From assembly GCA_964635905.1 (NCBI GenBank), contig CAZWPK010000003.1, positions 66,459 to 130,458 of the forward strand: a stretch of 64,000 bases of DNA, in the 5' to 3' direction. Source of the stretch: an uncultured Pseudomonadales bacterium (lineage in GTDB: Bacteria; Patescibacteriota; Microgenomatia; UBA1400; UBA12028). The notes under the pieces are model-generated. The model was not told the origin of the DNA, searched no databases, and saw nothing but the letters and a program-made list of their open reading frames with translations. This document shows, piece by piece, positions 8,558-27,860 of the stretch. Position 1 is the stretch's first letter; each line of letters begins with the position of its first letter. The translations under genes were made by a program, and so were the position numbers.

Positions 8558-11131
8558 TTGGACTACAAACAGTTTGCAGAAAAATGCTATAATACTTGTG
8601 CTATGCCAGAAGTAAGAACAGCAGGCCAGGAATTATATGCTCACTTTCGACAAGGTGTTGATGTTTTTTCTGATGCGGTACAAATTAACACACTCAGAAA
8701 CGGGTGGCCGACTAACCTTACTAAAGACTATGGGACTGAAATTGACTTAATGGCGAACTTAGTAAGGCTTTATAGAATTAATCCGCAGAATAGACCAAGT
8801 GAAATTGAAGCTAAAACAATTATTGATCTGCGTGGTCGGGCTGAAGCCGACTTGACAGCAAAACGAGCGGAAGCATCTCATGAAGCTGTAGCAGGCGCTG
8901 ATGACGACACGATTGAAATTCATCAGCTTTATATAAGTGAATTAGAAAACTTTCTCCGATATATAAATGCAATTATTTCAAAATTAGATTTAGCCGCTTC
9001 GATTCAACGCGCTAGGCCAACTGTAGAGGAAAGACGAGGTATTGATCCCGATGCTATTTGGGACTCTTATGCAAAATGGAAAAAGCTTGCACAAGAAAAT
9101 GAAGACACAGCTTCTCCAGATGTGGTTGATAGGGTAGAACGTGCTTTATTAAACTATGCAATGGGTGTTTTGGTTACCAATTTCTGGGAAAGTTGGAATG
9201 ATGAAAAGAAGTTTTCGGATGTGATGAAGCTTCCTGTAGGTAAAGACCAGGTCGGTGGGCGAGATATTACAATTGCGGAACTTATAGACAATCATCCACC
9301 CGGTCCTTCCTCCGGTCCAGGTAGTGAAAAATTGATGCGTGAACGTCTTCAAGTGATTATAAAATCCTTTCAAGGTGGAGTGCATTTTAATGAGATGGCG
9401 AAGAGTGATAACACCCATAAGGATTCCGTAGAGCATCTTCAACATTGGATGTTTAATGGAGACGATTGGGAACAGTTAATGTCGATTCCAGCACTCGCTC
9501 CCGGAGAAAAGGATTTAGGTGATGTTGCGGGCGAAGCAATAGGAATTCTTGGAAGTTGGAATTCAAAGTTTATCAAAACCACTGTTGTTGAAAGAGATGT
9601 AATTGCTGCTCAAGTTGATGCAGAGATTGCAAGTGGAAGAATCCGACTTCCCGGTCGAAAAGAACTAGAAGCAGCACTTCATCAATATGAAAGTCAAAAA
9701 GAAAAAACTTTTTCAGGTATTTCCTTTAGAGATGCTGGTGGCTTAGATGCTAAAACTATTCTGTTCTTATACAACAACGTAGCCAGAAAAGATTACGCAA
9801 GATTTGCAAGTGCTTTTTCTATTGAAATTCAAAAGCCCAGAGTAAAAGCCAAAGAAAAAGTGCGTCAAGAAAAATTTGGTTTATTTCCTTTACGAAAATA
9901 TGGGGAAAGTCCACGTAGAGATGAAAGTGGACACATTGTAAAAAATTTAGAAATGTATATCCCTCATGTCACAATCGCTGTTGGTTGTTATCAATTGGGT
10001 CTGGGTGAATATGAAATCATTCGTAGAGAGCACCCAGTGGGAAGCGGAACTGAGACTTTAGGGATTAAATTCACTGACGCAGCTGGTGTCGTGCGCTTAC
10101 TTACCCCCGAAGAGAAAGAGAAAGCTTTGGCAAAAGGGAAAGCAGCGATGTTACTAGGGTTTCATACTTATCAAGCAAATGGCGGTCCGATTGGTGACGA
10201 TAATGTGGAGCGAAAATCAAATATCACTGCTGTTAGACTTTACGATACTGCTCAGTACCGCCTGAACTACGCTTCAACAGGAAGAGAAGGTAGATTTAAT
10301 TTAGGATATGTAAAGCGACTAAATGTTCACCCTCTAGATTACATGGCTGCGAATGGGAAATCCATTCGAAGATTAATGGCAGATAGGACTCATCGTCAAC
10401 ATGCTGATTATAAGCTGATGGGTGATATTCTTCATGCTCAAGTGGTTGAAGACTATAGTTTTGCAGAGAAAATGTATGCAGGTTATACAGGTGGATTGGA
10501 TGATGCCATAGATAATTTTGACATCATGAAGTTGGTTACTCTAGAACGTCCAAATCAGTTCTTCTCTTTAACAGAGTACATCAATATTGATGACAATGGT
10601 TTAACTGCTTTAAAGAAATTTGTTACTCAGAAGATTGGATATCTTGTTGATCGGAATATGGTAATTGGAAGGGAGGATGCCATTCGAAGTGGCTACTTTG
10701 ATGATAAAGTTTGGGAGAAAATTGTCGAAGTAAAACCTGGCGAGTGGGTCTTTAGTCCGTTACCTTCCATGTTAGCCATGACCGCAGAAGACAAAGTTAA
10801 GTTTAATGAAGATATTAAAAAATTTGGGTTTAAGTCAGCAATGATCAAAGCATTTCTTACTCCTATGTTGATAGAAACATTAATGAGAGTAGGTAGGAGA
10901 GAAGTTGAACCCTACTGGATACAAGGGCTAGTATACATTCTTTCGGGTGAAGATCCGGAGTCTAGGTACGCTATTCGAAATAAAGATAACCTAACGGCTG
11001 CACTTTCCACATCGGATGAAGGTGTTGCGTTTAACTACACATCACCCGAGGTATACAGCATGATTGCTACAGCAGCAAAGGAAGTAAAAGGTGGATTAGA
11101 GGTGTTCTTGAGTCAGCAGGGTGGTCATTAG
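8558..11131 (+). CDS. Hypothetical large soluble protein (857 aa)
   Basis: Long uninterrupted ORF divergent from 7177..8520. It has no TM segment and no P-loop (GSGTET is not a Walker A). A TATAAT sits at 8585..8590 just upstream of an alternative ATG at 8603. Confidence 0.6.
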   Translation: MDYKQFAEKCYNTCAMPEVRTAGQELYAHFRQGVDVFSDAVQINTLRNGWPTNLTKDYGTEIDLMANLVRLYRINPQNRPSEIEAKTIIDLRGRAEADLTAKRAEASHEAVAGADDDTIEIHQLYISELENFLRYINAIISKLDLAASIQRARPTVEERRGIDPDAIWDSYAKWKKLAQENEDTASPDVVDRVERALLNYAMGVLVTNFWESWNDEKKFSDVMKLPVGKDQVGGRDITIAELIDNHPPGPSSGPGSEKLMRERLQVIIKSFQGGVHFNEMAKSDNTHKDSVEHLQHWMFNGDDWEQLMSIPALAPGEKDLGDVAGEAIGILGSWNSKFIKTTVVERDVIAAQVDAEIASGRIRLPGRKELEAALHQYESQKEKTFSGISFRDAGGLDAKTILFLYNNVARKDYARFASAFSIEIQKPRVKAKEKVRQEKFGLFPLRKYGESPRRDESGHIVKNLEMYIPHVTIAVGCYQLGLGEYEIIRREHPVGSGTETLGIKFTDAAGVVRLLTPEEKEKALAKGKAAMLLGFHTYQANGGPIGDDNVERKSNITAVRLYDTAQYRLNYASTGREGRFNLGYVKRLNVHPLDYMAANGKSIRRLMADRTHRQHADYKLMGDILHAQVVEDYSFAEKMYAGYTGGLDDAIDNFDIMKLVTLERPNQFFSLTEYINIDDNGLTALKKFVTQKIGYLVDRNMVIGREDAIRSGYFDDKVWEKIVEVKPGEWVFSPLPSMLAMTAEDKVKFNEDIKKFGFKSAMIKAFLTPMLIETLMRVGRREVEPYWIQGLVYILSGEDPESRYAIRNKDNLTAALSTSDEGVAFNYTSPEVYSMIATAAKEVKGGLEVFLSQQGGH

Positions 11132-11343: not shown

Positions 11344-13206
11344 TTAGTTTTCACTTGTACTGCCAGTGCTGCCGTTGCCACCTGCTGCGCTAGTGTCAGT
11401 ATTTTCGGCCTCTTTAATTTTGCCTCGAGTCTCAATATTTGTTTTTGCTTCACGAAGACCTTTTCCAAGTTCTTGTGTTGATTTTAGATCTCTTTGGAGA
11501 TGACCGACTGTCGATAATGCTTTTTGTGCATAACCAAGACCGCCACCAACAATTGCTGCTCCGCCGGCTCCTACACCAAGACCACGAGCTGCATCTCTAC
11601 GGATAGTTTGCCATCGCTGACCAGCTGGAGCCTTTCGTGCATTCAACGCTCCTACTGCAGCGCCGCCCGCTAATCCAACACCAGCGCCAATTCCGAGTGC
11701 ACCAATTGCGCCACCCAATCGACCTTGTTTAGCAAAGTCTCCAATCGCTTTACCTGCATCGATATTAAACTTCCCAGAAGCTAACTGTTTGGCAATTTCC
11801 ATGGCTTGAGGGAGCATCGCCAGTAAGCCGAACTTTAGGAAGGCAAGAGCCATGGTTGCTCCAACTCCTTGGTTGGAACCAATCTGAAGTGGAGAAAATC
11901 CTCCAATCCCAGCTTCGCCAGCTGAGTTAAAATCAGGATGATAGGTAAAGTAATTAGCAATCAGGATAAAGAAGATAACGGTAGGGAAGACTAACAAGTT
12001 AGACAAAATACCTTGTATCCAGGCTCCAAAGGTGTTTTGCCCAGGCATTGCTCCAATTAACAGCTGAATAGGAGCAAAGATTACCGAGAAGAATAGACCC
12101 GCATAGGCTTTCAGCAGCCCAAAGAAGATTCTAAATAGGTTGACAAGTAATGCAACCGCAATGACCAGGAACATAATGAGGCCTGCACCAATACCGACTA
12201 CTTGTGAGATTGCTTCACTTTGCTGCAGGCTTCCCATGATATCTGCAACCATTTCAGCGAAATTAGAGGCAACGTTATTAGCAACGCTAGTAAATAGGTT
12301 GGCCCCATTTTCGAAAATACTTCGTTGGAAAGCAATTTGACTTAAGTTTGACCAGGCAAGCTGGTTATCAATTGAGTTAGGAGTAGAAAAGACACCAATC
12401 ATTAAGTAGATTGCCAAATACATGATTTCGATCATAAAACCGGCGATTGCATACGAGAAGGTAATTAACAACAGTGACACAACCATCTTCGGTAATGCTT
12501 GTTGAATGGTTATGGCTGTCTTGCCGCCTTCTTTCCGTAAAGCAATCATGACGCCTACGATTAAGAACAGGATCACAAAAAAGAAATATGCTAAGTTGCG
12601 GAACAATCGCCACAAGTTTAATACGGGACGGAGCGAGGAAAATCCTAGTCCTTGTGCATAGGCTGGAGTTGCCCCAAACGGATTTTGAATACTTTCTTTT
12701 ACATAGGCAATATATTCGGTTCCTGTAGCAGGAGGAATATACATTTTTGAAGAATAATCGATCACAGTACCCATAGCACCAGGGGAATATGAGAGATATT
12801 GCTCTCCTTTACGAGGTACACCAACTCGGGCATTGCCATTAGCATCTACGGTGATAAAAGTAAGACTATTTGCTACATCTGAACCTATTGCTCCCGTGAT
12901 GTATTTTGAAGCAAAAGCCTGAACATTTTGTTCGTTAGTGGTAGATTCTTGCCTAATGGCATCTATTTGTTCTTGTTGAATAGGGGTTAGTGCTTTTGAG
13001 AGTGTGCTTGTTGCATACAAAACTCCCGCAATGAGGAAGAACACAATTGCAAGATGATTATTGACCTTCTTATATGCCTGATAGAATCGGCCAAAAGTTT
13101 GCTTTGAAAAAGAAACGACTTGCATAGCTATATTGTACACTGCCATATTTTTGTCGTAAACGTTAGGTTTATTGCCCACAAACACTGGCTTCAGTGATTG
13201 TGGCAA
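11344..13206 (-). CDS. Polytopic membrane protein, putative VirB6/TrbL-like channel component
   Basis: N-terminal TM segment, a ~170-aa extracytoplasmic loop, six or more further TM helices, then a Gly/Ala-rich disordered C-terminus (GAIGALGIGAGVGLAGGAAVGA). This is the topology typical of the TrbL/VirB6 family. It sits immediately downstream of the SLT-domain gene on the same strand. Confidence 0.5.
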   Translation of the reverse strand: MPQSLKPVFVGNKPNVYDKNMAVYNIAMQVVSFSKQTFGRFYQAYKKVNNHLAIVFFLIAGVLYATSTLSKALTPIQQEQIDAIRQESTTNEQNVQAFASKYITGAIGSDVANSLTFITVDANGNARVGVPRKGEQYLSYSPGAMGTVIDYSSKMYIPPATGTEYIAYVKESIQNPFGATPAYAQGLGFSSLRPVLNLWRLFRNLAYFFFVILFLIVGVMIALRKEGGKTAITIQQALPKMVVSLLLITFSYAIAGFMIEIMYLAIYLMIGVFSTPNSIDNQLAWSNLSQIAFQRSIFENGANLFTSVANNVASNFAEMVADIMGSLQQSEAISQVVGIGAGLIMFLVIAVALLVNLFRIFFGLLKAYAGLFFSVIFAPIQLLIGAMPGQNTFGAWIQGILSNLLVFPTVIFFILIANYFTYHPDFNSAGEAGIGGFSPLQIGSNQGVGATMALAFLKFGLLAMLPQAMEIAKQLASGKFNIDAGKAIGDFAKQGRLGGAIGALGIGAGVGLAGGAAVGALNARKAPAGQRWQTIRRDAARGLGVGAGGAAIVGGGLGYAQKALSTVGHLQRDLKSTQELGKGLREAKTNIETRGKIKEAENTDTSAAGGNGSTGSTSEN

Positions 13207-16200
13207 ACTGACTAGACATTAACTGTGCACACTGACAGTAATTCCGACTTCCACAACCCTGGACTGCTGGCGATTTTCCTACTACTACGCCTCCGCACAG
13301 TTGACCTGCTACGTTTCCACTAGTATCGATCTGAATACGTTTTGTCTCATTACAGCCACCCGCAGAATACTGGTCGGTTGATAAGCAAAGTCCATGGTAG
13401 GCACCAGCTGCCACATACCAGCGGGCAATTCCTTCTACATCGCGGATGTTTGCCAGGTTATAGCGTTGTTTAAGCAACCGAGCTGCGCCTGTAAGTGACG
13501 CTTCCAGTTCACAGGGGTTTCCGCTCACACCTAAATTTGCCCAGACATCGACAACAGCTGCACTGCTACAGGTTTTTGAAAGAATTTGCATAGGACCGGT
13601 GGCACCCACAGAGTTAATGGTGCACGCAATCGTACTTGTGGGTTGAGAATTTGGTGCATTACAAACGGCCGTGATGGTGCCTGCACCTTCAATACGTAAA
13701 AGCCCCCACAATATTTCAGGTGGGACGCCCTCACTGCTTGCTACTGTCTGAATAATCTGCTTTAAGCCATTTCCAGTGGAAGTGTTGGTGATAAAAGAAG
13801 GAATGACGGTGGTACGACAGGCGATTGGTCCTTCCGTAGGCCCAGGGGCTTCTTCTTCCATTCCTTTTGTACAGGCTGCTGGACCTTCTTTTAGGACGGA
13901 TTCAAAGCCAGGATAGGGGGCAGTAGGAACATTGGAATTAGGTCTTCCAATATTACAGATGATTTCCCAGAGCGAACGAGCAAGTTTGCCACCAGGTGTA
14001 ACAGGATTTGCATCAAACTGATTGGTATCGGGACCAACGATTTTCCCTCGCAAACGAATAAGCTCTCCGGATCGAGTTGCAGCGGGTAGTGAAGTTGGAC
14101 CAGCAGTTGCAGCAACGGGTCCAGAATTATACTGAATTCCAATTGGACCACTTTCGGTAGGAGGGGAGGCAATCGCGAAAGAATTGTCGCTTAGTTGTAA
14201 ATATCGAAAACCAACAAATTGATTTTTTTGACGTAATCGATCTTCTTGGGCTTTTGTTAATACCCAAAACTTATTTTGTTGTTGTTCTAAGGGTAAGAAA
14301 CGATCGACCATTTTATTTTCATAGGCTTGTAAATTCCGAAACTCTTCTGGGAGCAGGAAATAGGTTCGAATTCTAGCTTCTGAGCCTCGAGGAGACTGTT
14401 TTGCAGTCAGAACGGTTTGAAGTCTGATCTGAACCTCCGAGACAGGGTCTAAGGTTCCACCAGGGTTAATAATCTGTTTTCGTTCTGACGCTTTTTCACC
14501 AGTGATATCGGTGATACCTGCACATGACTGGCTATATTCTGGATGAATTCTGGTAGGAAAGGTTTCGGCATTGATTCTGCGAACAATAATCGATTCAAGA
14601 CTGTCGGCATCAGGACCCATGCAGTCTACACATTGTATGGTCGCTCCACTGTCGGAAGGATATTTCATTGAGTCTTGTGCAGAGCGATTGATCACGGTTT
14701 CGATTTCTTGCTTTTTTTCATCGGAGATAATTTTTTGCTCCTCTTTACCAAAGATGGAATGCATGGTTTGAATAAACCCACCATTGTAGGTAGGGAATGG
14801 GTCTCCACCACTTGGATTCTTTAACTCTGCAAATCCAGCTGGAACATAGACTTTGGTGATCCGAATTAACGATTTCAAGCGTTGTTCCGCATTGGTGTTG
14901 GTCAGGCCATTGGCTGCCCAGGGGGAGAACCATTTCTGGAAACGATCAAAGGTTGTGGGTACTCCACTTTCGGTGCGATCGGGTGTATCGACATATTGCA
15001 CGATATACGCGGGCTTAAATCCTCTGTGCGTTGTCGGTTCGACTTTACTAAACGCTTCTTCAACAGACTTCCCAAGTCTTGGTGTTTGCTGTGCACAACT
15101 ATACGTGCCAGGAATTTCACTTAAAACTTGCAAATAGGTCTTCCCAGTGCCAGGGATCTCAACATCGAGAGCACATCGACCAGTATCGGTAAGTTCAACG
15201 AGGGAGGAGTTATTAATCGGTGTGGGGGAGGTGCGTGGCATAGTACATAAGGACTGGATCGCACGAAGGAACTGCAGTTTTGTTTCGCACTGTTGTTCTC
15301 TTGAGGAGAGCTTTTTCACGACCCCGTTTGCAAAGGGGCCAACAATATCTTGAATTCCTTCTGCCTGGCTAAAGGGAGCATTATAAAAGCCTTCTAAATC
15401 ATCCAATCGTCGTTTGGGATCTGTGGGACGCGGGGTATCGGCGGATTCGAAGCGAAGTAGCGGTAAGGTGGTTCGCTGATTGTTGATAAGAACAGTTGCA
15501 GTAATTCCAGAGACTCTACATCCGGAGTTTCCATTTGGACATTGGCCATCAATAAAACTGTAGTAGTTGCTAGCAGGATTACTATCCACTTTATCTTCGT
15601 TTTCTAAACCACCGGTAAACTCCATGACACTTCCACAGGTATACATGTAGCGCGCAGCCATTGCTCTTTTCTCGGCGACTGTGGGTTGATCATCGATCCC
15701 AGGATAGATAAACGAGGCGGATTGATTTCGGGAACAGTCATTAAGTACCTCCGCACCGGTGCTGTCATAGGCTTTACCATACACATAAAATAGCCAGTCG
15801 CGTTTGGTAACATTACTATTCTTACAGGGGTCAATAATGAGGGCGGTGGCAGTCTCGACTCCTGACGGGAGCTTCACGGTATCCAGAAATTCCACTTGAT
15901 CTTGGATTGAGGGAGGGGGTTGGGTATTTGGGTTTACTCCAACTCCTCCAAAGTGGACAACTTTTTTCCCCGGGCACATGTCTGTTTCTACGATTCGCCA
16001 TGCATCCAATCCAGAGATTCCAGCAACTCGAGTAGGAATTCCATCAAAGACATTGGCAACTAGTACATCTGCGCCAGCACAAGCTCCACTCGCTCGAAAG
16101 GCTTGCATCCAGGGAACAGGATCCCAGTCTCCGTTATATAAATCGGGGGGTGCGGGAGCGATCCGATAATGTGAATCACTTCCAATTGCAGCGGTAAATA

Positions 16201-16702
16201 CTTTGAACTGTTGAGCATAACGAACTCCTGCTGCACGGGTATCTGTTAAACCTTGATATTCTAATGTTAAGTTATTGAGTTCATTTCCAAGGTACACGAT
16301 TGTTCCCTGGGGAAAGGCTCCCTTGTTTGCAAGCAAGCTTTGTGCATAGGTAGTAAAGACGCTGTCGGGAGTGTTTGGTCCAAAGTCCACGACACGGATA
16401 ACAATTTTGCGATTGGCAGGCTGGGGGATTGGATTGTACGCCGGTCCTCCTAGAGCATTGGCGATCTGAACAACCCCTGTGTATTGTTGAGGCTCAATGA
16501 GGTATCGGTAGAGATCTTCTTGTGCTATTTGGATGTAGCCGGCACCGGCTACTTCAGGACCAACATCTTCACGTCGTACCCCGCTGGTTTGAGCGTATGT
16601 TGTTGAAGCGCTTACCAGTAACAAACCGATAGCCACACTCAAACACAATACAAAAAACTTCCAACAATTTTGGAGCCTAAACACCATACAGATAGTATAC
16701 AA
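13169..16702 (-). CDS. Large secreted cell-wall hydrolase with a C-terminal SLT lytic transglycosylase domain (VirB1-like)
   Basis: 1177 aa with an N-terminal signal/anchor (LVSASTTYAQTSG). The C-terminal domain carries family-1 lytic transglycosylase motifs: EILWGLLRIEGAG (catalytic Glu), GPMQIL, AAGAYHGL. Confidence 0.75.
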   Translation of the reverse strand: MYTICMVFRLQNCWKFFVLCLSVAIGLLLVSASTTYAQTSGVRREDVGPEVAGAGYIQIAQEDLYRYLIEPQQYTGVVQIANALGGPAYNPIPQPANRKIVIRVVDFGPNTPDSVFTTYAQSLLANKGAFPQGTIVYLGNELNNLTLEYQGLTDTRAAGVRYAQQFKVFTAAIGSDSHYRIAPAPPDLYNGDWDPVPWMQAFRASGACAGADVLVANVFDGIPTRVAGISGLDAWRIVETDMCPGKKVVHFGGVGVNPNTQPPPSIQDQVEFLDTVKLPSGVETATALIIDPCKNSNVTKRDWLFYVYGKAYDSTGAEVLNDCSRNQSASFIYPGIDDQPTVAEKRAMAARYMYTCGSVMEFTGGLENEDKVDSNPASNYYSFIDGQCPNGNSGCRVSGITATVLINNQRTTLPLLRFESADTPRPTDPKRRLDDLEGFYNAPFSQAEGIQDIVGPFANGVVKKLSSREQQCETKLQFLRAIQSLCTMPRTSPTPINNSSLVELTDTGRCALDVEIPGTGKTYLQVLSEIPGTYSCAQQTPRLGKSVEEAFSKVEPTTHRGFKPAYIVQYVDTPDRTESGVPTTFDRFQKWFSPWAANGLTNTNAEQRLKSLIRITKVYVPAGFAELKNPSGGDPFPTYNGGFIQTMHSIFGKEEQKIISDEKKQEIETVINRSAQDSMKYPSDSGATIQCVDCMGPDADSLESIIVRRINAETFPTRIHPEYSQSCAGITDITGEKASERKQIINPGGTLDPVSEVQIRLQTVLTAKQSPRGSEARIRTYFLLPEEFRNLQAYENKMVDRFLPLEQQQNKFWVLTKAQEDRLRQKNQFVGFRYLQLSDNSFAIASPPTESGPIGIQYNSGPVAATAGPTSLPAATRSGELIRLRGKIVGPDTNQFDANPVTPGGKLARSLWEIICNIGRPNSNVPTAPYPGFESVLKEGPAACTKGMEEEAPGPTEGPIACRTTVIPSFITNTSTGNGLKQIIQTVASSEGVPPEILWGLLRIEGAGTITAVCNAPNSQPTSTIACTINSVGATGPMQILSKTCSSAAVVDVWANLGVSGNPCELEASLTGAARLLKQRYNLANIRDVEGIARWYVAAGAYHGLCLSTDQYSAGGCNETKRIQIDTSGNVAGQLCGGVVVGKSPAVQGCGSRNYCQCAQLMSSQFATITEASVCGQ

Positions 16703-16711: not shown

Positions 16712-17146
16712 TTAAGGAGAGCCAGGCAATTGTGTGTTGAATTGCAAAATGGTTTGCACCCCGGTAAAGTTCGCAATAAAACGCAGAATGAGGAACGATG
16801 CTAGAGCTACAACAATTCCTAGTATTGCGAAGGTAAGCGCATTCTTGCCACCTTCAACGCCTTTAGTGTTGCTGCCCGCAGTCAAGTACCGAAACGATCC
16901 CACTAAAAACATTACAAAGGCAGCAATTCCAATCATGGTAATCGCAACAGATAAGACATTAGCGACTAAGCATTCAATTCCTTCAAAAGTGGCGACATCA
17001 TTCTCGCTAGCAACGGTGGAATATCCGTGAACACAGCGATTATTAATCGAGCTCCAGGCACTTGTCTGAGCCGAAGCAGGTGGAGTGTTGAGAGAGAAAA
17101 AATAGAAGGCACTTGTTAATACAATCGCAATTACTTTAAATATCAT
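16712..17146 (-). CDS. VirB2/TrbC-like two-helix pilin family protein
   Basis: Signal peptide (PPASAQTS), then hydrophobic helix - TAGSNTKGVEGGKNALT loop - hydrophobic helix. Paralogous to the array at 18423..21566. Confidence 0.65.
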   Translation of the reverse strand: MIFKVIAIVLTSAFYFFSLNTPPASAQTSAWSSINNRCVHGYSTVASENDVATFEGIECLVANVLSVAITMIGIAAFVMFLVGSFRYLTAGSNTKGVEGGKNALTFAILGIVVALASFLILRFIANFTGVQTILQFNTQLPGSP

Positions 17147-17186: not shown

Positions 17187-18359
17187 CTACTGATGTACTG
17201 TTTGACGCCGAAGTCTTTTTCCTAACACCACTAACAGAGCCAGTAGATATAGCGTTGGTACAAAAGGGAAAACACTCGGATAGAAGGGAGAAAAGTAGGC
17301 TAACAGAAAAGTAAGATACCCAAGAAGAATAAAAACTCTGATTTGAAGGGTTTTCTCCTTCCGTAGGAAAAACAACGGGATGAGGAGTAAGACAGCATCA
17401 TGGACATGCACATGCACGCCGCACAGGAGAATGAGCGGAACGAGCATTGCAAAGACTGCACTACTAGGTGCCAACCATACTTTGTTTTTAACACTCCATA
17501 AGGCTGTGATAAGTGTGGTTAGTCCCGTTAAACCAAGCATCAACAGGGTCGGTTTCAAATTTGGAATCAAGCGATGAAGTTGCCATGCAAATCCCTGCCA
17601 AGAAATCATGGCTTCTTTGCTGTGTTCGGGCGAACTAGATGATACATAGGAGATAAATGTTCCAAAGAAGGTACGCACTTCGGTTCCAAGAATAAAAAAA
17701 GAAAGCAAACTGAGGAGAACTCCTCCGATCAGTAACCCTTTAAGAAATGGTCGTTTCTCTCGAAGCATCCAGTACAAAGTAACGAAAATGGCTATTTGAG
17801 GCTTGTACCAAAGCACGCTTGCCAACAACCCAGCCGTAAATGGCTTATTCTTCTGAATCCGGTTTTGAATTATTAAGAGTAATAAGAGACTAAGTAATGA
17901 AGACTGCCCATTTTTTAAGGTGACAAAGAATGGAATGAAGACGCTTGCCTCAAGGAGCAGTTGACTAAAAGAGAGTTTGATAGTGAATTCAGATTTGATC
18001 AGGTAGATGCAGGCAACAAACACGGCAAGATTAAAACTCACCCATATCCCGAATGCGATGTCGACCGGGAGCCAAGCAAGGGGAGCAAAAAGAAGTGCCA
18101 AATAGGGTGGATTAATAAAGGAGAGTGTATAGAACTTCTTTTCATCGACAGGGAAAAACTGTTTTTGAGTTAGTTCTTGTTGGTCGTTTGTATAGAGACT
18201 AGATGGAGTGGTTTGAAGAATATATCCAGAGCTGTAGAACACACGGAAATCAGAGTCGTAGAGATTTGTTTTAGACAGGAGAAAGGCAAGCCACCCAACC
18301 GTAGCAATCAACACGACTTTTAAATAGAGCTGAACTGCAGACACTGCCTGCTTCATCAC
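17187..18359 (-). CDS. Polytopic membrane protein, DUF2029/GT87-like (GT-C type) glycosyltransferase candidate
   Basis: 390 aa with about 10 TM helices and a DFRVFYSSG motif in the first extracytoplasmic loop, resembling the catalytic-Asp loop of GT87/PimE-like mannosyltransferases. It is embedded between pilin genes. Confidence 0.45.
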   Translation of the reverse strand: MMKQAVSAVQLYLKVVLIATVGWLAFLLSKTNLYDSDFRVFYSSGYILQTTPSSLYTNDQQELTQKQFFPVDEKKFYTLSFINPPYLALLFAPLAWLPVDIAFGIWVSFNLAVFVACIYLIKSEFTIKLSFSQLLLEASVFIPFFVTLKNGQSSLLSLLLLLIIQNRIQKNKPFTAGLLASVLWYKPQIAIFVTLYWMLREKRPFLKGLLIGGVLLSLLSFFILGTEVRTFFGTFISYVSSSSPEHSKEAMISWQGFAWQLHRLIPNLKPTLLMLGLTGLTTLITALWSVKNKVWLAPSSAVFAMLVPLILLCGVHVHVHDAVLLLIPLFFLRKEKTLQIRVFILLGYLTFLLAYFSPFYPSVFPFVPTLYLLALLVVLGKRLRRQTVHQ

Positions 18360-18422: not shown

Positions 18423-18827
18423 TTAGAAACCTTGTGGGATTTCAATCGATCCACCGACACTTGTTCCGAAGAATCGGTTAATCACGGCTGCGATTGCAAA
18501 TGCGGAGGCAACGATTGCAAGTCCGATAATTGCGTTCGTAATCTTTTGTCGTGCACTTTCAGTCTTTGATTTATCTCCACCTGCAGTGAGCCATTCGACT
18601 CCACCCCAGATTAAGTAGATAAAGACTAATAGTCCAACGATTCCTAAAATTAATCGGAGTGCTCCGTTAATTAAGGTTCCAATTTGCGTAATACGGAATC
18701 CTGCTTGACCTGCATCGACATCAATGGAGTCCTCATTTGGGACACCCGCTTGTGCCAAGATAGGGGTTACCGTTGCAAAAAATGTTGCTACAGCTGTAGT
18801 AACAGATGACAATACTTTTTTAGCCAT
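18423..18827 (-). CDS. VirB2/TrbC-like pilin family protein, candidate major pilin
   Basis: Signal peptide ending ILAQA. Mature part has helix - LTAGGDKSKTESARQKITNAIIG - helix. AGGAGA RBS 7 nt upstream. An extended -10 promoter lies upstream and a strong terminator downstream. Confidence 0.75.
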   Translation of the reverse strand: MAKKVLSSVTTAVATFFATVTPILAQAGVPNEDSIDVDAGQAGFRITQIGTLINGALRLILGIVGLLVFIYLIWGGVEWLTAGGDKSKTESARQKITNAIIGLAIVASAFAIAAVINRFFGTSVGGSIEIPQGF

Positions 18828-18864
18828 ATATTCTCCTATTAGTTTACTAATAGCTAGTATAACT

Positions 18865-18873
18865 ATTATACCA
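18865..18873 (-). promoter_or_regulatory. Extended -10 promoter element (TGgTATAAT) for pilin gene 18423..18827
   Basis: Minus strand reads tattatggTATAATagttatac...aataGGAGAatatATG. The hexamer is a perfect TATAAT with an upstream TG and an AT-rich spacer region. There is no good -35. Confidence 0.35.
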
Positions 18874-18936
18874 TAATACTAGGGAGATAACGGGTCAGAG
18901 TCAAGAGAGAACTTACGAAGTATTAGAAGTACTTCT

Positions 18937-19587
18937 TTATGGACACGAAGAACCTGCTTGCCAGGACCATGCTTTGGCAGCACCATTTTGACAGCTGCAC
19001 GGTTCCCAGTGTGCATAAGGAATACCAGTGGTTGTTTGACACTTTACATTAGCGGCAGCACCACCTACACAGTATCCTCCAGCGCCACCATCACTGGAGC
19101 TTACTCCAACCTGACAGATCTGAGTCCCCGTTCCAGAACCACCTGAGCCACCACTTCCGCCGTTGCTGCTACCGGGGACATATTGTTGAGGTTGATTTAA
19201 TCCTAACAAGCTTACTGGGCCACCATTGATTCCTAAGAAGTAGAAGAGAATTCCCACAATCGCAAACACTGATGCAAAAATTGCAAAACCCACTATGGCT
19301 TGCGTAATCATGCTTCGCGCTGCTTCGACTTTGCTTTTATCTCCACCCGCAAGTACCCAGTTAGCACCACCCCAAACTAAATATCCAAATAGAATTAACC
19401 CAGTGATTCCTAGTCCCACATTCGCAAGTCGAGCAATCAGTAATCCTAAATCCACCACAAAGTATCCAGCTGTTCCCGCATCCAAGGTGAGGTCGGGTGT
19501 AGCTCCAGGTGCGCCTTGAGCAAAAATTTGAGAAGGAGCAAGAATGAATAGGAGAATGAGAACAAAGAATATAGTCTTAATATTCAT
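18937..19587 (-). CDS. VirB2/TrbC-like pilin with a C-terminal Gly/Ser linker and a small Cys-rich domain
   Basis: Signal peptide (IFAQGAPG), helix - LAGGDKSKVEAARSMITQAIVG - helix, then a GSSNGGSGGSGGSGTGT linker and about 80 aa containing 6 Cys (CQVG..YCVGG..KCQTT..EPCSC..SSCP). Confidence 0.7.
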   Translation of the reverse strand: MNIKTIFFVLILLFILAPSQIFAQGAPGATPDLTLDAGTAGYFVVDLGLLIARLANVGLGITGLILFGYLVWGGANWVLAGGDKSKVEAARSMITQAIVGFAIFASVFAIVGILFYFLGINGGPVSLLGLNQPQQYVPGSSNGGSGGSGGSGTGTQICQVGVSSSDGGAGGYCVGGAAANVKCQTTTGIPYAHWEPCSCQNGAAKAWSWQAGSSCP

Positions 19588-19595
19588 AGATAAAA

Positions 19596-20036
19596 CTAGA
19601 ATTTTCCACCCATGATAGGAGTGGGAAGATTTTGCAAACCACCTGTTCCGGTTGCCGGAACTTGCTGTCTAGACGAAAAGGTCTTCCCGAAAATATTAAG
19701 CTGAATGCGATCACCAAGTCCGAAGAAGTTAAGGACAATTGCATAGATTGCAAACACCGAGGCGAGGACCACTAGTCCAATTGCTGCTTGGGTCAACGTA
19801 GCGCGGGCTTCTTCCACTTTCCCTTTATCTCCACCGGATGTTACCCATTTAAGCGCTCCTAAAAAGAAGAACACTAATACTGCAAGCGCTCCAACAGTTA
19901 ATGCTGCGCGAGCACCTATTTCAATTAGGTTCCCAAACGTTTGAATAGGTGAGATTTCTAATGTGCGGGACTGTAAGTCAATTACTTGTGTTGGGGTTGT
20001 AGGAGCCTTTGGTGCTTGTGCAAGATAGTTCATCAT
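19596..20036 (-). CDS. VirB2/TrbC-like pilin family protein
   Basis: helix - VTSGGDKGKVEEARATLTQAAIG - helix. No classical cleavable signal peptide. The gap to the upstream gene is 1 bp. Confidence 0.7.
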   Translation of the reverse strand: MMNYLAQAPKAPTTPTQVIDLQSRTLEISPIQTFGNLIEIGARAALTVGALAVLVFFFLGALKWVTSGGDKGKVEEARATLTQAAIGLVVLASVFAIYAIVLNFFGLGDRIQLNIFGKTFSSRQQVPATGTGGLQNLPTPIMGGKF

Positions 20037-20037
20037 A

Positions 20038-20391
20038 TTAAAGATTATTGGCGAACTCTGGTTGTAATAGATTAAAGCCTAATAGACTACTAATGAACAA
20101 ACTGATTGCAACGGTACCCACAAGCACGAGCAGACCGATGATTGATTGGGTAATCCTATTTCGTGCACTTTCAATTTTCCCTTTATCACCTCCGGCCAAA
20201 ATCCATTCCAATGCTCCGTAAATCAACATTACCAGAAGGGCAATGCTTCCTAATGTAACCGCAGTTCGCCACAGAGTAACAATAATATTTCCTAGCGCAA
20301 ATGCTCCTGTTCCTGCACCAAAATCTGCTGTAATTGCAGGGTTAGTAATGACATTCTGGTTTAGCTTTGACTGTGCGATGAATGCAAACAT
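20038..20391 (-). CDS. VirB2/TrbC-like pilin family protein
   Basis: helix - ILAGGDKGKIESARNRITQSIIG - helix. 117 aa. Confidence 0.7.
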   Translation of the reverse strand: MFAFIAQSKLNQNVITNPAITADFGAGTGAFALGNIIVTLWRTAVTLGSIALLVMLIYGALEWILAGGDKGKIESARNRITQSIIGLLVLVGTVAISLFISSLLGFNLLQPEFANNL

Positions 20392-20393
20392 AC

Positions 20394-20756
20394 TTATGGT
20401 GTTAATTTTTGTAATACGGAAATAGGATCTAAAATATCAATTCCTAAAACTCCACCCACAATTCCTGAAATTGCATAGGCAGCAATAACCACGACTAGTC
20501 CGAGAGCAGCTTGTGTCATCTGGCTACGAGCACTTTCAACTTTTCCTTTATCTCCACCAGCTGACACCCAAGAGAGTCCAGCAAAGATTAAGTAGATAAG
20601 AAACATTAAGCCAGCTAGGGCCGTTAAAAATCCAATGAAAGTGCTCACAAAGGTGACAACAGGTGTACCAGCGCCGACTGCGTCCGATCCCGTTGGGGCA
20701 AATGGAGAGGCAATTGGGGCGATAGTTCCGAGTCGGACAGCGATAAGATTAAACAT
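20394..20756 (-). CDS. VirB2/TrbC-like pilin family protein
   Basis: helix - VSAGGDKGKVESARSQMTQAALG - helix. 120 aa. Confidence 0.7.
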   Translation of the reverse strand: MFNLIAVRLGTIAPIASPFAPTGSDAVGAGTPVVTFVSTFIGFLTALAGLMFLIYLIFAGLSWVSAGGDKGKVESARSQMTQAALGLVVVIAAYAISGIVGGVLGIDILDPISVLQKLTP

Positions 20757-20761
20757 AAGTA

Positions 20762-21133
20762 TTATGGTGCCTGTGGAATATCTGGATTCAGGATATACAT
20801 TGCATCGCCAAATAATAGGAAACTGATGATACCTGTGATTCCAAACGAGCCGACAATCACGACTAGTCCGAGTAAACTGTTTGTGAGTTGCTGCATTGCT
20901 TGTTCGGTGGCCTTTGGATTTCCAGCAGAGCCAAGATAAGTGTAGCCGGCAGCTATGATATTAAATAAGCCGAACAAACCAGCAATGATGCTGATAAGTT
21001 TAACTACATTAGAAATGAAGCCGAAGATACCGATGCCACCTTGTGACGCAGCGTTAAAACGCTGTACCCCTGGTGGCGGGGTCACAACCCCGAAAATTCC
21101 TTGTGTGATGAGAACATAAGCGGTTGCGTACAT
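20762..21133 (-). CDS. VirB2/TrbC-like pilin family protein (divergent loop variant)
   Basis: helix - LGSAGNPKATEQAMQQLTNSLLG - helix. The start is placed at the internal Met (MYATAYVLI) to avoid overlapping the upstream paralog. The track ORF extends to 21175. Confidence 0.6.
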   Translation of the reverse strand: MYATAYVLITQGIFGVVTPPPGVQRFNAASQGGIGIFGFISNVVKLISIIAGLFGLFNIIAAGYTYLGSAGNPKATEQAMQQLTNSLLGLVVIVGSFGITGIISFLLFGDAMYILNPDIPQAP

Positions 21134-21146
21134 AGTGTAGTTTTTA

Positions 21147-21566
21147 TTATAGCGTAGAGTTAAAGATTTGGACACCAGTGATCAACTCTACGATTTGTAC
21201 AATCCAGTATGCTGCAAAAATTACTACTAACCCTAAAACGGCGGTGACAATCTGGTTTTTCCCTTGCTCCATGTTTTTGGCGTTCCCACCAGAGGCAATG
21301 ATCGCAAAACCTCCTCCGATCAGGAGAAATAGGAAGATTAACCCAGCAACAATGAATGCTAAAGGAACAAAAAGGTTAAGAAAAGCAGCAAGATTGGGGT
21401 ACAGTGAGCTAACACCCCGATCAACAATTGGTCCTCCAGGATAAACGGGAACTCCTTGGCCAGTTTTTAGTGAGGTTCCCAAGTCGATCTGTGACAAGAG
21501 TGTAAGCATATCTACTATGTAGTATACAATATTGCGTATGACTTTTCCTAAAGAAAAGGAACTCAT
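21147..21566 (-). CDS. VirB2/TrbC-like pilin family protein (divergent loop variant), first gene of the array
   Basis: helix - IASGGNAKNMEQGKNQIVTAVLG - helix. The N-terminus is uncertain (internal Met at ~21509). The annotated start overlaps the divergent sigma-factor start by ~35 bp. Confidence 0.6.
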   Translation of the reverse strand: MSSFSLGKVIRNIVYYIVDMLTLLSQIDLGTSLKTGQGVPVYPGGPIVDRGVSSLYPNLAAFLNLFVPLAFIVAGLIFLFLLIGGGFAIIASGGNAKNMEQGKNQIVTAVLGLVVIFAAYWIVQIVELITGVQIFNSTL

Positions 21567-27851: not shown

Positions 27852-27860
27852 CAGTGAGAC

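What the first reader, a model, noticed from the sequence alone, without database searches (positions are those of the whole stretch)
11344..16702. Giant SLT-domain secreted protein plus VirB6-like channel protein downstream of the pilins
The 1177-aa protein has an unassigned ~1000-aa N-terminal region followed by a clear family-1 lytic transglycosylase domain (E...GPMQI...AYHG). It overlaps by 38 bp a polytopic protein with a VirB6/TrbL-like topology and a Gly/Ala-rich tail. The pairing of a cell-wall-piercing enzyme, a channel protein and pilins resembles Gram-positive and CPR-type T4SS or conjugation modules. The ATPase components are missing here.
Basis: partly seen in the sequence, partly recalled or inferred. 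Interest (0 to 1): 0.6.

Follow-up and report, generated by a model that had tools for sequence, protein, structure and literature searches.

The report
Split type IV secretion island, Woesebacteria
These two genes, together with the pilin genes beside them, are one half of the type IV secretion machine already known from ultra-small CPR bacteria: a divergent channel protein (VirB6-like) and a giant secreted protein built from swappable sugar-cutting modules, one of them a cell-wall-cutting domain.

Summary
Both ORFs are real. The window is chromosomal DNA of a Candidatus Woesebacteria (CPR/Patescibacteria) genome.

**Giant protein (1177 aa).** It has a Sec signal peptide and 28 Cys in the mature chain. 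It has three parts:
- A GH5-like (beta/alpha)8 barrel (res 45-330). It keeps the acid/base Glu (E141) but has Gly (G253) where relatives carry the nucleophile Glu.
- A 630-aa core with no detectable match to any solved structure.
- A divergent SLT/goose-lysozyme-like domain (res 967-1169; E1005, GPMQ, AYHG). It falls below Pfam's cut-off but is supported by hhalign (92%, P=6e-7) and Foldseek.

**620-aa protein.** It is a divergent VirB6/TrbL-like polytopic protein. Its best PDB fold matches are TrwI/VirB6.

**Context.**
- The order pilins, large secreted protein, VirB6-like recurs across relatives: 58 of 59 species-level loci have at least 2 pilin genes upstream. An ECF sigma factor accompanies the long arrays (26 loci).
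- In four relatives a VirB4 ATPase lies within about 9 kb. A PrgI/VirB3-like gene was confirmed in the one locus scanned.
- The window holds no VirB4 or VirD4.

**Verdict.** This is an island of the known Patescibacteria T4SS. New here are the VirB6 reported as scarce in Microgenomatia, and a mosaic "slot" protein in which the SLT domain is optional (13 of 59 loci).

The parts
21532..22071 (+). ECF-type sigma factor, transcribed divergently from the pilin operon
   Evidence: Pfam Sigma70_r2, r4_2 and Sigma70_ECF. The same gene sits at the same position in 26 of 59 related loci, only those with long pilin arrays.
18423..21566 (-). Array of seven VirB2-like T4SS pilin genes: 21147-21566, 20762-21175, 20394-20756, 20038-20391, 19596-20036, 18937-19587, 18423-18827
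   Evidence: Each hits PF18895 T4SS_pilin (E 1.6e-11 to 4.5e-5). The 18423 gene also hits the NCBIfam Mbov_0395 pilin-like conjugal transfer family (8.6e-8).
17187..18359 (-). GT87-family polytopic glycosyltransferase inserted in the pilin array
   Evidence: Pfam GT87 4.7e-20. Not seen at this position in the other loci examined.
16712..17146 (-). Eighth pilin gene, directly upstream of the giant gene
   Evidence: PF18895 1.2e-5.
13169..16702 (-). Giant secreted 'slot' protein, 1177 aa (1172 aa from the annotated ATG)
   Evidence: ORF. Signal-peptide-like N-terminus and 28 Cys in the mature part. 79 relatives among 1.84 billion representatives, with mosaic N/M/C domains. AF2 mean pLDDT 77.
15713..16570 (-). 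N domain (res 45-330): GH5-like clan GH-A (beta/alpha)8 barrel. Acid/base Glu E141 (16280-16282) is kept; the nucleophile position is Gly G253 (15944-15946).
   Evidence: Eight alternating strand/helix units. Foldseek top hits are GH-A hydrolases and phage GH5 proteins at E=1.6e-4. The Glu of G[NV]E.NN is kept in 51 of 51 members. 22 members have TE[FYIW]G where the window has HFGGVG.
13823..15712 (-). Middle region (res 331-960): Cys-rich core of the family, fold unassigned
   Evidence: The A7 profile gives 0 PDB hits at E<=10. Res about 380-600 is the segment shared with slot proteins of L001-L003.
13196..13804 (-). C domain (res 967-1169): divergent SLT/goose-lysozyme-like lytic transglycosylase domain; presumed catalytic Glu E1005 (13688-13690)
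   Evidence: Glu is invariant and the NSxGAVGPMQI and AGxYxG motifs are conserved in 18 members. hhalign vs 5 E. coli SLT domains gives Prob 92.2, P=5.9e-7, with controls <=0.4%. The top PDB profile hits are all lytic transglycosylases, though E is 0.25-1.1. Foldseek finds MltF and phage LT_GEWL proteins. Pfam SLT is below cut-off.
11344..13206 (-). Divergent VirB6/TrbL-like polytopic membrane protein (620 aa from TTG 13206, or 600 aa from ATG 13146). TM core at res 190-480 (11767-12639), Gly/Ala-rich then charged C-terminal tail.
   Evidence: 8-9 hydrophobic segments. At least 298 relatives. AF2 core pLDDT 80-94. Foldseek top hits are TrwI/VirB6. NCBIfam ICE membrane-protein families hit in 9 of 32 members. 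Relatives found in at least 459 GTDB species genomes.
26739..29616 (-). Second cluster of three proteins with a C-terminal T4SS_pilin domain (370, 123 and 474 aa)
   Evidence: PF18895 1.3e-9, 3.6e-13, 2.9e-5. A 392-aa counterpart lies at the edge of the P0003 locus.
8558..11131 (+). Convergent 857-aa protein with no signal peptide, TM segment, Walker A or Pfam hit. Its position is conserved but its sequence is not. Membership in the module is uncertain.
   Evidence: Large convergent ORFs (990-1370 aa) occupy the same place in L001, L002, L003, L009 and L010 but do not align with it.

Best explanation
The region is the surface-and-membrane half of the Patescibacteria-type (monoderm, MPF-FATA-related) type IV secretion system, placed on the chromosome apart from its VirB4 ATPase.

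**Proposed mechanism**
- A dedicated ECF sigma factor is inferred to drive one long operon.
- The operon first encodes eight sequence-divergent VirB2-like pilins, which are inserted into the membrane.
- It then encodes a Sec-exported giant protein, and last a VirB6-like polytopic protein. By analogy with TrwI/VirB6, the VirB6-like protein would form the membrane platform from which pilins are extracted and through which substrate passes.
- The giant protein is the locus's wall-active accessory. Its C-terminal SLT-like domain, with the catalytic-type Glu E1005, would cleave the glycan strands of peptidoglycan locally. That would let the pilus or channel cross a wall: the VirB1/PrgK role.
- Its N-terminal GH5-like barrel lacks the nucleophile Glu, so it more likely binds a glycan than hydrolyses it.
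- The central 630-aa core is the conserved scaffold that ties the protein to the machine.

**Shown versus inferred**
- Shown: domain identities, conserved gene order, and physical linkage to VirB4 in four relatives, with a PrgI/VirB3-like gene confirmed in one of them.
- Inferred: enzyme activity, which wall (its own or the host's) is cut, sigma-factor control, and the presence of VirB4 elsewhere in this genome.
For: **Pilins.** All eight upstream small genes hit PF18895.

**VirB6-like protein.**
- The AF2 TM core is confident. Foldseek against the PDB puts TrwI/VirB6 chains at 8 of the top 9 places, prob 0.90-1.00.
- 9 of 32 members hit MMCAP2_0566 and 8 of 32 hit the Mbov_0396 ICE membrane-protein model.
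- One member carries a UniRef TrbL/VirB6 name.

**Giant protein.**
- hhalign of the C-domain family against E. coli Slt70/EmtA/MltC/MltD/MltF gives Prob 92.2, P=5.9e-7. It aligns the Glu, GxMQ and AYxxG motifs, and all controls stay at or below 0.4%.
- Fold hits include MltF and phage LT_GEWL proteins.
- The GH-A barrel is supported by fold hits and residue conservation.

**Synteny.**
- The same order appears in 7 of 7 loci inspected by hand.
- Of 59 GTDB species loci, 58 have pilins upstream and 50 have a large ORF directly upstream.

**Link to the ATPase.** VirB4 follows within about 9 kb in L024, L052, L059 and L063: phmmer against pCF10 PrgJ down to 2e-40, and Pfam P-loop_TraG 8e-31 (L063) and 1.5e-24 (L024). 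In L024 a PrgI-family gene (PF12666, 4e-6, only just above Pfam's cut-off) precedes it.

**Literature.**
- Pilin arrays are abundant in Microgenomatia, virB4 usually sits near dnaA/dnaN there, and VirB6 is reported 'scarce, suggesting extreme divergence' (PMC12102498).
- The T4SS and its pilin array are essential in Southlakia (PMC10633639).
Against: - No VirB4, VirD4, VirB3 or VirB8 homologue is in the 64-kb window, and I could not search the rest of this genome.
- The window's VirB6-like protein has no Pfam TrbL hit. Only 1 of 32 relatives has one, at E=0.008. hhalign against PrgH alone is negative, and Foldseek TM-scores are only about 0.4.
- The SLT domain fails Pfam's threshold and is modelled with low-confidence loops.
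- Only 13 of 59 related loci carry this domain in the slot protein. Wall cleavage by this domain therefore cannot be a universal requirement of the machine.
- The giant has no membrane anchor, unlike PrgK-type hydrolases as I recall them (not checked here).
Confidence: 0.72

Rival explanations
1. The giant protein is aimed at the host cell, not at the producer's own wall. On this reading it is a pilus-associated or co-secreted 'warhead' or adhesin whose exchangeable enzyme modules (GH5-like, SLT-like, GDSL esterase, NAGPA) are matched to the envelope of the bacterium the epibiont lives on.
For: - The family is a domain mosaic: N 25, NM 21, NMC 10, M 9, MC 6, C 5, NC 3 among 79 relatives.
- Some members carry GDSL-lipase or NAGPA domains instead.
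- The slot is conserved but its occupant varies widely. 27 of 59 occupants match none of the three domains.
- The protein is Sec-exported, Cys-rich and unanchored.
- Its structural neighbours include phage tail and tape-measure lysins.
- CPR bacteria are obligate epibionts and their T4SS is essential for growth on the host (PMC10633639).
Against: No direct evidence of localisation or target. Woesebacteria hosts are unknown. The producer makes peptidoglycan itself (Ddl and SpoIID genes in the window), so a self-directed role is equally possible. This rival is compatible with the T4SS reading and differs only in the target.
Confidence: 0.3
2. The locus builds an adhesive VirB2-type pilus that works without any VirB4. 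It would be a self-contained pilus system, not part of a secretion machine.
For: In all long-array loci with the sigma factor, no VirB4 lies within 10 kb. The window has none in 64 kb.
Against: In L024, L052, L059 and L063 the same gene order continues to VirB4 on the same strand, with PrgI/VirB3 confirmed in L024. No VirB2 pilus is known to assemble without VirB4 (established T4SS knowledge; reviews PMC12857230, PMC12624023). Microgenomatia genomes usually carry virB4 near dnaA (PMC12102498).
Confidence: 0.1
3. The two genes are a housekeeping peptidoglycan-turnover pair: a lytic transglycosylase plus an unrelated membrane transporter, lying next to pilins by chance.
For: The flanks are housekeeping genes: FtsH, 5'-3' exonuclease, mevalonate/isoprenoid genes. 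The locus is chromosomal and syntenic.
Against: Linkage to pilins holds in 58 of 59 species. The membrane protein's best fold match is VirB6. The SLT domain is absent from most positional counterparts, which is the opposite of what a housekeeping enzyme would show.
Confidence: 0.03
4. The region is part of an integrated conjugative element that transfers DNA.
For: The components resemble Gram-positive and Mycoplasma ICE conjugation genes. A serine recombinase and IS-like genes lie about 20 kb away, at 36-38 kb.
Against: No relaxase or coupling protein is in the window. The locus sits in the same housekeeping context across genomes whose VirB6-like proteins are only 33-44% identical to the window's. 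Composition across the locus is unremarkable: GC 0.43-0.46. Relaxases are rare in Patescibacteria T4SS loci (PMC12102498).
Confidence: 0.04

Closest known systems
Patescibacteria/CPR type IV secretion system (Southlakia epibionticum SEML1_0006-0019; surveyed in PMC12102498, PMC10633639, PMC12857230)
   Same: A monoderm T4SS with an array of sequence-divergent VirB2-like pilins, a VirB6-like membrane protein and wall hydrolases. It is chromosomal and lacks a relaxase. Pilin arrays are reported as especially abundant in Microgenomatia.
   Different: - Here the pilin/VirB6 part is separated from VirB4.
- It has its own ECF sigma factor.
- The VirB6 is of the divergent kind the survey reported as 'scarce' in Microgenomatia.
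- The hydrolase is a 1177-aa mosaic protein in a fixed slot between pilins and VirB6. In Southlakia, peptidase and lysozyme homologues sit downstream of virB4.
VirB6/TrbL family (TrwI of R388, PDB 7o3v/8rtd; Mycoplasma ICE Mbov_0396/MMCAP2_0566 proteins)
   Same: A polytopic helical membrane protein and the best fold match. Family members give weak profile hits to the ICE membrane-protein models. A pilin-like gene lies next to it, as the Mycoplasma locus-tag numbering (0395/0396, 0565/0566) suggests for those ICEs.
   Different: - The window protein has no Pfam TrbL hit.
- It has a roughly 130-residue extracytoplasmic region after TM1 with invariant AYAQGLGF.
- It has a Gly/Ala-rich and then charged C-terminal tail.
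- hhalign against pCF10 PrgH alone shows nothing.
T4SS peptidoglycan hydrolases: VirB1 (Agrobacterium); PrgK (pCF10), TraG (pIP501), TcpG (pCW3), Orf14 (Tn916)
   Same: A lysozyme-fold glycan-cleaving domain encoded inside a T4SS gene cluster beside VirB6. The Gram-positive versions are large and multi-domain (PMC12102498).
   Different: - This protein has a cleavable signal peptide, not a membrane anchor.
- The SLT-like domain is C-terminal.
- No CHAP/NlpC-P60 or LytM Pfam domain was detected.
- It adds a nucleophile-less GH5-like barrel and a 630-aa unknown core.
- hhalign against PrgK alone is negative.
Family 1 lytic transglycosylases / goose-type lysozyme superfamily (Slt70, MltC, MltE, MltF; phage LT_GEWL proteins)
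   Same: A Glu at the end of a helix, a GxMQ motif, an A-x-Y-x-G motif and a helical fold.
   Different: It has 'EG' where the family has 'ES', 'GPMQ' for 'GLMQ' and 'AGAYHG' for 'AYNAG'. It has extra Cys-rich insertions. It scores below Pfam's gathering threshold.
Clan GH-A glycoside hydrolases (GH5 and relatives)
   Same: A (beta/alpha)8 barrel with an N-E acid/base motif after strand 4. Distant family members have TE[FYIW]G after strand 7, the classic nucleophile motif.
   Different: In the window protein and its close relatives the nucleophile Glu is replaced by Gly (HFGGVG). No Pfam GH family is hit.

Membership tests
VirB6/TrbL (T4SS inner-membrane channel/platform protein) | Polytopic membrane protein with at least 5 TM helices | tested here: met
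   8-9 hydrophobic segments by a Kyte-Doolittle scan. The AF2 helical bundle at res 190-480 has pLDDT 80-94.
VirB6/TrbL (T4SS inner-membrane channel/platform protein) | Sequence match to the family profile (Pfam PF04610 TrbL) | tested here: not met
   No hit for the window protein. 1 of 32 relatives hits at E=0.008. Weak hits to the related NCBIfam ICE membrane-protein models occur in 9 of 32 members, best 2.6e-5 and all far below cut-off. One relative is named TrbL/VirB6 by UniRef.
VirB6/TrbL (T4SS inner-membrane channel/platform protein) | Fold similarity to a solved VirB6 | tested here: met
   Foldseek against the PDB: TrwI/VirB6 chains of 8rtd, 7o3v and 8rt9 take 8 of the top 9 places, E 1.9e-3 to 8e-2, prob 0.90-1.00. 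TM-score is only about 0.4.
VirB6/TrbL (T4SS inner-membrane channel/platform protein) | Encoded with other T4SS genes, above all VirB4 | tested here: inconclusive
   It lies next to VirB2-like pilins in the window and in 58 of 59 relatives. VirB4 is within about 9 kb in L024, L052, L059 and L063, with PrgI confirmed in L024. There is none within the 64-kb window. The rest of this genome was not searchable.
SLT / family 1 lytic transglycosylase (PF01464; lysozyme-like superfamily) | Score above Pfam's gathering threshold | tested here: not met
   15.7 bits against a cut-off of 21.3, E=0.011, for the C-terminal 243 aa. 0 of 32 family members hit at E<=0.01.
SLT / family 1 lytic transglycosylase (PF01464; lysozyme-like superfamily) | Catalytic Glu plus GLMQ and AYNxG motifs in order | tested here: met
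   E1005 is invariant in 18 of 18 members. GAVGPMQ and AGxY(invariant)xG are conserved. hhalign pairs them with the E. coli motifs. The Ser after the Glu is replaced by Gly.
SLT / family 1 lytic transglycosylase (PF01464; lysozyme-like superfamily) | Profile-profile homology to bona fide SLT domains | tested here: met
   hhalign of A4 against Slt70/EmtA/MltC/MltD/MltF: Prob 92.2, P=5.9e-7, 109 columns. Unrelated, reversed and shuffled controls give Prob <=0.4. All 8 top PDB profile hits are lytic transglycosylases, but E is 0.25-1.1.
SLT / family 1 lytic transglycosylase (PF01464; lysozyme-like superfamily) | Lysozyme-like helical fold | tested here: met
   The model is helical at 978-1102, with E1005 at the end of helix 995-1005. 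Foldseek finds phage LT_GEWL (prob 0.99, 25% id over 124 columns), the PRD1 transglycosylase and SLT-domain phage proteins, and MltF 5aa1 (prob 0.75). Loops have low confidence.
SLT / family 1 lytic transglycosylase (PF01464; lysozyme-like superfamily) | Formation of 1,6-anhydro-MurNAc products from peptidoglycan | not testable with these tools
   Needs an enzyme assay.
Clan GH-A glycoside hydrolase (GH5-like) | (beta/alpha)8 barrel | tested here: met
   Eight strand/helix units at res 47-289, pLDDT mostly 85-94. Ranks 1-36 against the PDB are clan GH-A-type glycosidases, prob 0.38-1.00 and mostly >=0.84. Phage GH5 proteins hit at E=1.6e-4 and 3.2e-4.
Clan GH-A glycoside hydrolase (GH5-like) | Acid/base Glu in an N-E motif after strand 4 | tested here: met
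   GNELNN with E141. The Glu is conserved in 51 of 51 N-domain relatives.
Clan GH-A glycoside hydrolase (GH5-like) | Nucleophile Glu after strand 7 | tested here: not met
   The window has HFGGVG (G253). 22 distant members have TE[FYIW]G and 16 have HFEGWG or HLEGWG. The window's own clade has Gly or Ala. It is therefore not filed as an active GH.
Clan GH-A glycoside hydrolase (GH5-like) | Match to a curated GH family profile | tested here: not met
   No Pfam or NCBIfam hit. The N-domain profile finds no GH in the PDB by sequence.
Patescibacteria T4SS locus | Array of divergent VirB2-like pilins (PF18895) in a CPR chromosome | tested here: met
   Eight in the operon plus three nearby. The organism is Candidatus Woesebacteria.
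Patescibacteria T4SS locus | VirB4 of the Patescibacteria clade in the same genome | not tested
   Only 64 kb of this genome was available. VirB4 is present in the equivalent loci of four relatives and is usual near dnaA in Microgenomatia (PMC12102498).

The most novel reading that the evidence does not exclude
The slot between the pilin array and VirB6 holds a fast-evolving, domain-shuffled family of giant secreted proteins that serve as the host-contact or host-breaching end of the CPR T4SS. A conserved core would dock on the pilus or channel. Exchangeable glycan-active heads (dead GH5 lectin, SLT lysin, GDSL esterase, NAGPA) would be matched to the envelope of each epibiont's host. The equally hypervariable cytoplasmic giants encoded convergently next to VirB6 would be the translocated substrates. 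That would give a sequence-readable determinant of host range for uncultured CPR bacteria.
Probability: 0.2. Interest if true: 0.75.

Novelty: new variant of a known kind. Interest (0 to 1): 0.45.

Why it matters
- **The system matters.** The T4SS of CPR bacteria is essential for their epibiotic life, yet its parts list is incomplete. The 2025 survey could hardly find VirB6 or VirB1 in Microgenomatia.
- **A candidate for the missing VirB6.** A divergent VirB6-like gene sits directly behind the pilin arrays in at least 459 species-level genomes. It is joined to VirB4 in some lineages and split from it in others.
- **A new accessory family.** The gene before VirB6 is a conserved position filled by mosaic giant proteins. 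Their wall-active modules, including a cryptic SLT domain and a nucleophile-less GH5 barrel, escape standard profiles.
- **Practical value.** This supplies profiles and testable candidates for how a monoderm pushes a VirB2 pilus through a wall, and possibly for host specificity.

Tried and rejected
- **Direct searches on the giant.** Pfam and NCBIfam gave nothing at E<=0.01. phmmer against the PDB gave nothing.
- **N-domain and middle-region profiles against the PDB.** These returned only chance hits (EsxB, purine repressor) or none.
- **PDB hits of the 620-aa protein to light-harvesting proteins** were judged chance matches of helical membrane segments. The A1 family profile did not reproduce them.
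- **A single NCBIfam hit of one relative to CPR pilus protein PamT.** I followed it to the Pam pilus preprint. That system uses Ig-like donor-strand-exchange pilins and is unrelated.
- **Third homologue search, using the 32-sequence alignment,** returned the same five proteins.
- **hhalign of the VirB6-like family against PrgH, and of the C domain against PrgK, each as a single sequence,** was negative: 0.6% and 0.1%.
- **tblastn of the VirB6-like core against 72,556 plasmids** gave one chance hit. R388 and RP4 records were not in the collection.
- **The promoter/terminator scan** found no more sites than shuffled sequence.
- **The convergent 857-aa protein as a hidden ATPase** was rejected. 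It has no Walker A, and its positional counterparts are not alignable.

Full report
**Observation**

The giant protein, starting five codons later, is identical to MBP9700157.1, a hypothetical protein of a Candidatus Woesebacteria MAG. The rest of the window carries housekeeping genes: FtsH, 5'-3' exonuclease, AddA/UvrD-type helicase-nuclease, BipA, UvrC, DnaG, NusA, IF-2, Ddl and mevalonate/isoprenoid genes. This is chromosomal DNA of a CPR/Patescibacteria (Microgenomates) bacterium.

Upstream on the same strand lie eight small genes that all hit Pfam T4SS_pilin PF18895. A GT87 glycosyltransferase is inserted before the last of them. An ECF sigma factor gene is transcribed divergently from the array. 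Three more proteins with a C-terminal pilin domain lie at 26.7-29.6 kb.

No ORF in the 64 kb has a VirB4/VirD4-type Pfam hit. The only Walker-A motifs belong to FtsH, IF-2, BipA and AddA, plus chance matches in the Fic-domain protein and the giant's C-terminal tail.

The 38-bp overlap is not robust. An ATG at 13146, 22 nt after the giant's stop codon, gives a 600-aa product, and close relatives were called at 601 and 612 aa.

**The 620-aa protein**

- It has 8-9 hydrophobic segments and a Gly/Ala-rich, then charged, tail.
- It belongs to a large CPR family: 298 hits in the word-indexed search, and relatives in at least 459 species-level GTDB genomes.
- Direct profile evidence for VirB6 is thin.
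  - The window protein has no Pfam hit. One of 32 relatives hits TrbL at E=0.008.
  - Nine of 32 hit the NCBIfam MMCAP2_0566 conjugal-transfer family and eight hit the Mbov_0396 ICE transmembrane family, all far below cut-off.
  - One relative is named TrbL/VirB6 in UniRef.
- An AlphaFold2 model from a 32-sequence alignment is confident in the membrane core (pLDDT 80-94, res 190-480). Its best PDB matches by Foldseek are the TrwI/VirB6 chains of the R388 T4SS. They take 8 of the top 9 places with prob 0.90-1.00, but TM-scores are only about 0.4.
- hhalign against pCF10 PrgH as a single sequence, and tblastn against plasmids, found nothing.

I conclude it is a divergent VirB6-like protein, with about 80% confidence.

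**The giant protein**

It has one N-terminal hydrophobic segment followed by TYAQ and no other TM segment. The mature chain has 28 Cys, consistent with an exported, disulfide-rich protein. It has only four relatives in the word-indexed search. An exhaustive phmmer over 1.84 billion representatives found 79.

These relatives share it piecewise. The N domain (res about 30-330), middle region (330-960) and C domain (960-1177) occur in the combinations N 25, NM 21, NMC 10, M 9, MC 6, C 5 and NC 3. A few members carry GDSL-lipase or NAGPA domains.

An AlphaFold2 model (33 sequences, mean pLDDT 77, pTM 0.66) shows three regions: eight strand/helix units at res 47-289, a mixed middle, and a helical C domain.

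*N domain.*
- Foldseek against the PDB returns almost only clan GH-A TIM-barrel glycosidases (GH5/26 mannanases, GH79 heparanases, GH2, GH86, GH1, GH53, GH128; E 1.5e-3 to 0.1). MltF appears at rank 48.
- Against viral models the top hits are phage GH5 proteins (E=1.6e-4), followed by LT_GEWL and SLT proteins.
- In an alignment of 51 N domains, the Glu of G[NV]E.NN (E141, after strand 4) is invariant.
- The position after strand 7 reads TE[FYIW]G in 22 distant members, which is the classic GH-A nucleophile motif. It reads HFEGWG or HLEGWG in 16 others, and HFGGVG in the window protein and its close relatives.
- The window's barrel therefore keeps the acid/base residue but lacks the nucleophile. 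I read it as a glycan-binding or otherwise non-canonical domain, not an active retaining hydrolase.

*C domain.*
- Pfam SLT scores only 15.7 bits (E=0.011, cut-off 21.3). No family member does better.
- An 18-member alignment has an invariant Glu (E1005, in LWGxxRIEG), a conserved NSxGAVGPMQI and an AGxYxG with an invariant Tyr.
- Its profile's eight best PDB hits are all lytic transglycosylases (MltC, Slt/LtgA). They are aligned on the Glu and GLMQ motifs but with E of 0.25-1.1.
- I built an alignment of the SLT domains of E. coli Slt70, EmtA, MltC, MltD and MltF. hhalign gave Prob 92.2, P=5.9e-7, over 109 columns that include all three motifs.
- Unrelated alignments, the reversed alignment and five column-shuffled versions gave Prob <=0.4.
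- In the model, E1005 closes helix 995-1005.
- The SLT-like assignment stands, but as a divergent member that fails Pfam's own test.

*Middle region.* Its profile finds nothing in the PDB. It could not be searched alone by fold. Res about 380-600 is the segment shared with the positional counterparts in other loci.

**Context**

In seven loci inspected gene by gene the order is the same:
1. isoprenoid or NUDIX genes;
2. a divergent ECF sigma factor;
3. 6-8 pilins;
4. a large exported protein of 790-1240 aa;
5. sometimes a roughly 290-aa gene on the other strand;
6. the VirB6-like gene;
7. a convergent large ORF.

I then fetched 80 species-level loci from GTDB genomes and scored their ORFs. The profiles were built from the window's pilins, the VirB6-like family and the three giant domains. 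I also ran phmmer with pCF10 PrgJ (VirB4) and PcfC (VirD4). Results for the 59 loci with at least 9 kb upstream:

| Feature | Loci (of 59) |
|---|---|
| At least 2 pilin ORFs upstream | 58 |
| At least 3 pilin ORFs upstream (mostly 7-10) | 37 |
| ORF of at least 500 aa directly upstream | 50 |
| ECF sigma factor (only with long arrays) | 26 |
| SLT-like C domain in the slot protein | 13 |
| N domain in the slot protein | 10 |
| Middle region in the slot protein | 16 |
| None of the three domains | 27 |

In L024, L052, L059 and L063 a VirB4-like ORF follows on the same strand within about 9 kb. Pfam confirms VirB4 in L063 (P-loop_TraG 8e-31, AAA_10, CagE_TrbE_VirB) and in L024 (1.5e-24). It also finds a PrgI/VirB3-family protein just before VirB4 in L024 (27.7 bits, cut-off 27), and a Peptidase_M23 protein just after VirB4 in L063.

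The module is therefore physically part of a T4SS gene cluster in some lineages and split from the ATPase part in the window's lineage. That is not met.

**Comparison with the literature**

- The Patescibacteria T4SS is known. In Southlakia epibionticum it is essential for epibiotic growth, contains an essential pilin array and lacks a relaxase (PMC10633639).
- A 2025 survey (PMC12102498) relates it to the monoderm MPF-FATA class. It finds 441 VirB2 arrays of 2-11 genes, especially in Microgenomatia and Saccharimonadia.
- The same survey reports virB4 near dnaA/dnaN in Microgenomatia. It notes that VirB6 homologues are 'scarce' there, 'suggesting extreme sequence divergence', and that VirB1 homologues are few and rarely near virB4.
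- A 2025 review lists these systems as the only monoderm T4SSs with VirB2 pilins (PMC12857230).

Against that background the kind of system is known. What this analysis adds:
- the divergent VirB6-like gene directly behind the arrays;
- a conserved slot filled by mosaic giant proteins with cryptic wall-active domains;
- the associated ECF sigma factor;
- the split versus contiguous architectures.

The recently described Pam pilus of CPR bacteria is a different, Ig-fold, donor-strand-exchange system.

**Mechanism, with status of each step**

- Shown: pilin, VirB6-like, SLT-like and GH-A-like identities, the gene order, and the linkage to VirB4 in four relatives (PrgI confirmed in one).
- Inferred from established T4SS knowledge: VirB6 forms the membrane platform for pilin extraction and substrate passage, and a lysozyme-fold enzyme opens the peptidoglycan for the apparatus.
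- Open: whether the giant cuts the producer's wall (VirB1/PrgK-like) or the host's. Its optional, shuffled enzyme modules, its lack of an anchor and its phage-lysin-like neighbours favour the host. Nothing tested here decides it.
- Not verifiable here: that VirB4 exists elsewhere in this genome.

**Verdict**

This is a new variant of a known kind. Interest is moderate (0.45). It is useful for completing the CPR T4SS parts list, and it offers a possible handle on host specificity.

Noticed in passing
window 26739-29616 (-): A second cluster of three proteins (370, 123 and 474 aa), each with a C-terminal T4SS_pilin domain. The two large ones have long N-terminal extensions. A 392-aa counterpart sits at the edge of the P0003 locus. 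Loci of the 'two-pilin' type (e.g. L018, L024, L072) use similar enlarged pilin-domain proteins.
   Followed up: partly
window 17187-18359 (-): A GT87-family polytopic (GT-C type) glycosyltransferase sits inside the pilin array, between the seventh and eighth pilin genes. It might glycosylate pilins or the giant protein. It was not seen at this position in the other loci inspected.
   Followed up: no
window 21532-22071 (+); also L001, L002, L003, L009, L010 and 20 further GTDB loci: An ECF sigma factor is transcribed divergently from the pilin operon. It is followed by two to four small ORFs with no Pfam hit in the window and the P0003 locus (possible anti-sigma). It is present in 26 of 59 loci and only where the pilin array is long. 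This suggests dedicated regulation of the array.
   Followed up: partly
window 8558-11131 (+) and 7177-8520 (-); L001 11635-14616, L002 11989-16101, L003 12038-15856, L009 11732-15409, L010 11785-15048: Large ORFs (857-1370 aa) convergent on the VirB6-like gene have no signal peptide, TM segment, Walker A or Pfam hit. They are essentially not alignable between loci despite their conserved position. They are hypervariable cytoplasmic proteins beside the channel gene and could be candidate substrates.
   Followed up: partly
L024 13912-21466; L052; L059; L063 10232-16847: In some relatives the module continues as a roughly 1100-aa protein, a 135-aa protein, a PrgI/VirB3-like protein fused to a CarboxypepD_reg-like domain (328 aa), a roughly 325-aa protein, then VirB4. 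In L063 an 885-aa Peptidase_M23 protein follows VirB4. Giant M23 proteins (1400-1530 aa) also lie 4-9 kb beyond VirB6 in L003, L009 and L010.
   Followed up: partly
window 36036-40863: GC dips to 0.39-0.41. The stretch holds a serine recombinase (593 aa), an overlapping HTH_38/transposase-like gene and a Fic/DOC-MerR fusion. It may be a small mobile insertion unrelated to the T4SS island.
   Followed up: no
L012-L091 (record titles): Many GTDB species-representative MAGs that carry this CPR module are titled 'uncultured Pseudomonadales/Gammaproteobacteria bacterium'. The complete genome CP011212.1, titled 'candidate division TM6 bacterium', carries the full module (L072). The deposited taxonomy labels look unreliable.
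   Followed up: no
L001 8843-9760, L002 8948-9835, L003 9014-9904, L010 8979-9845, L024 8834-9757 (all opposite strand): A conserved gene of about 290-305 aa (36-43% identity between the three loci compared, L001-L003) sits between the slot protein and the VirB6-like gene in many loci, on the other strand. It has no Pfam hit and is absent from the window.
   Followed up: no
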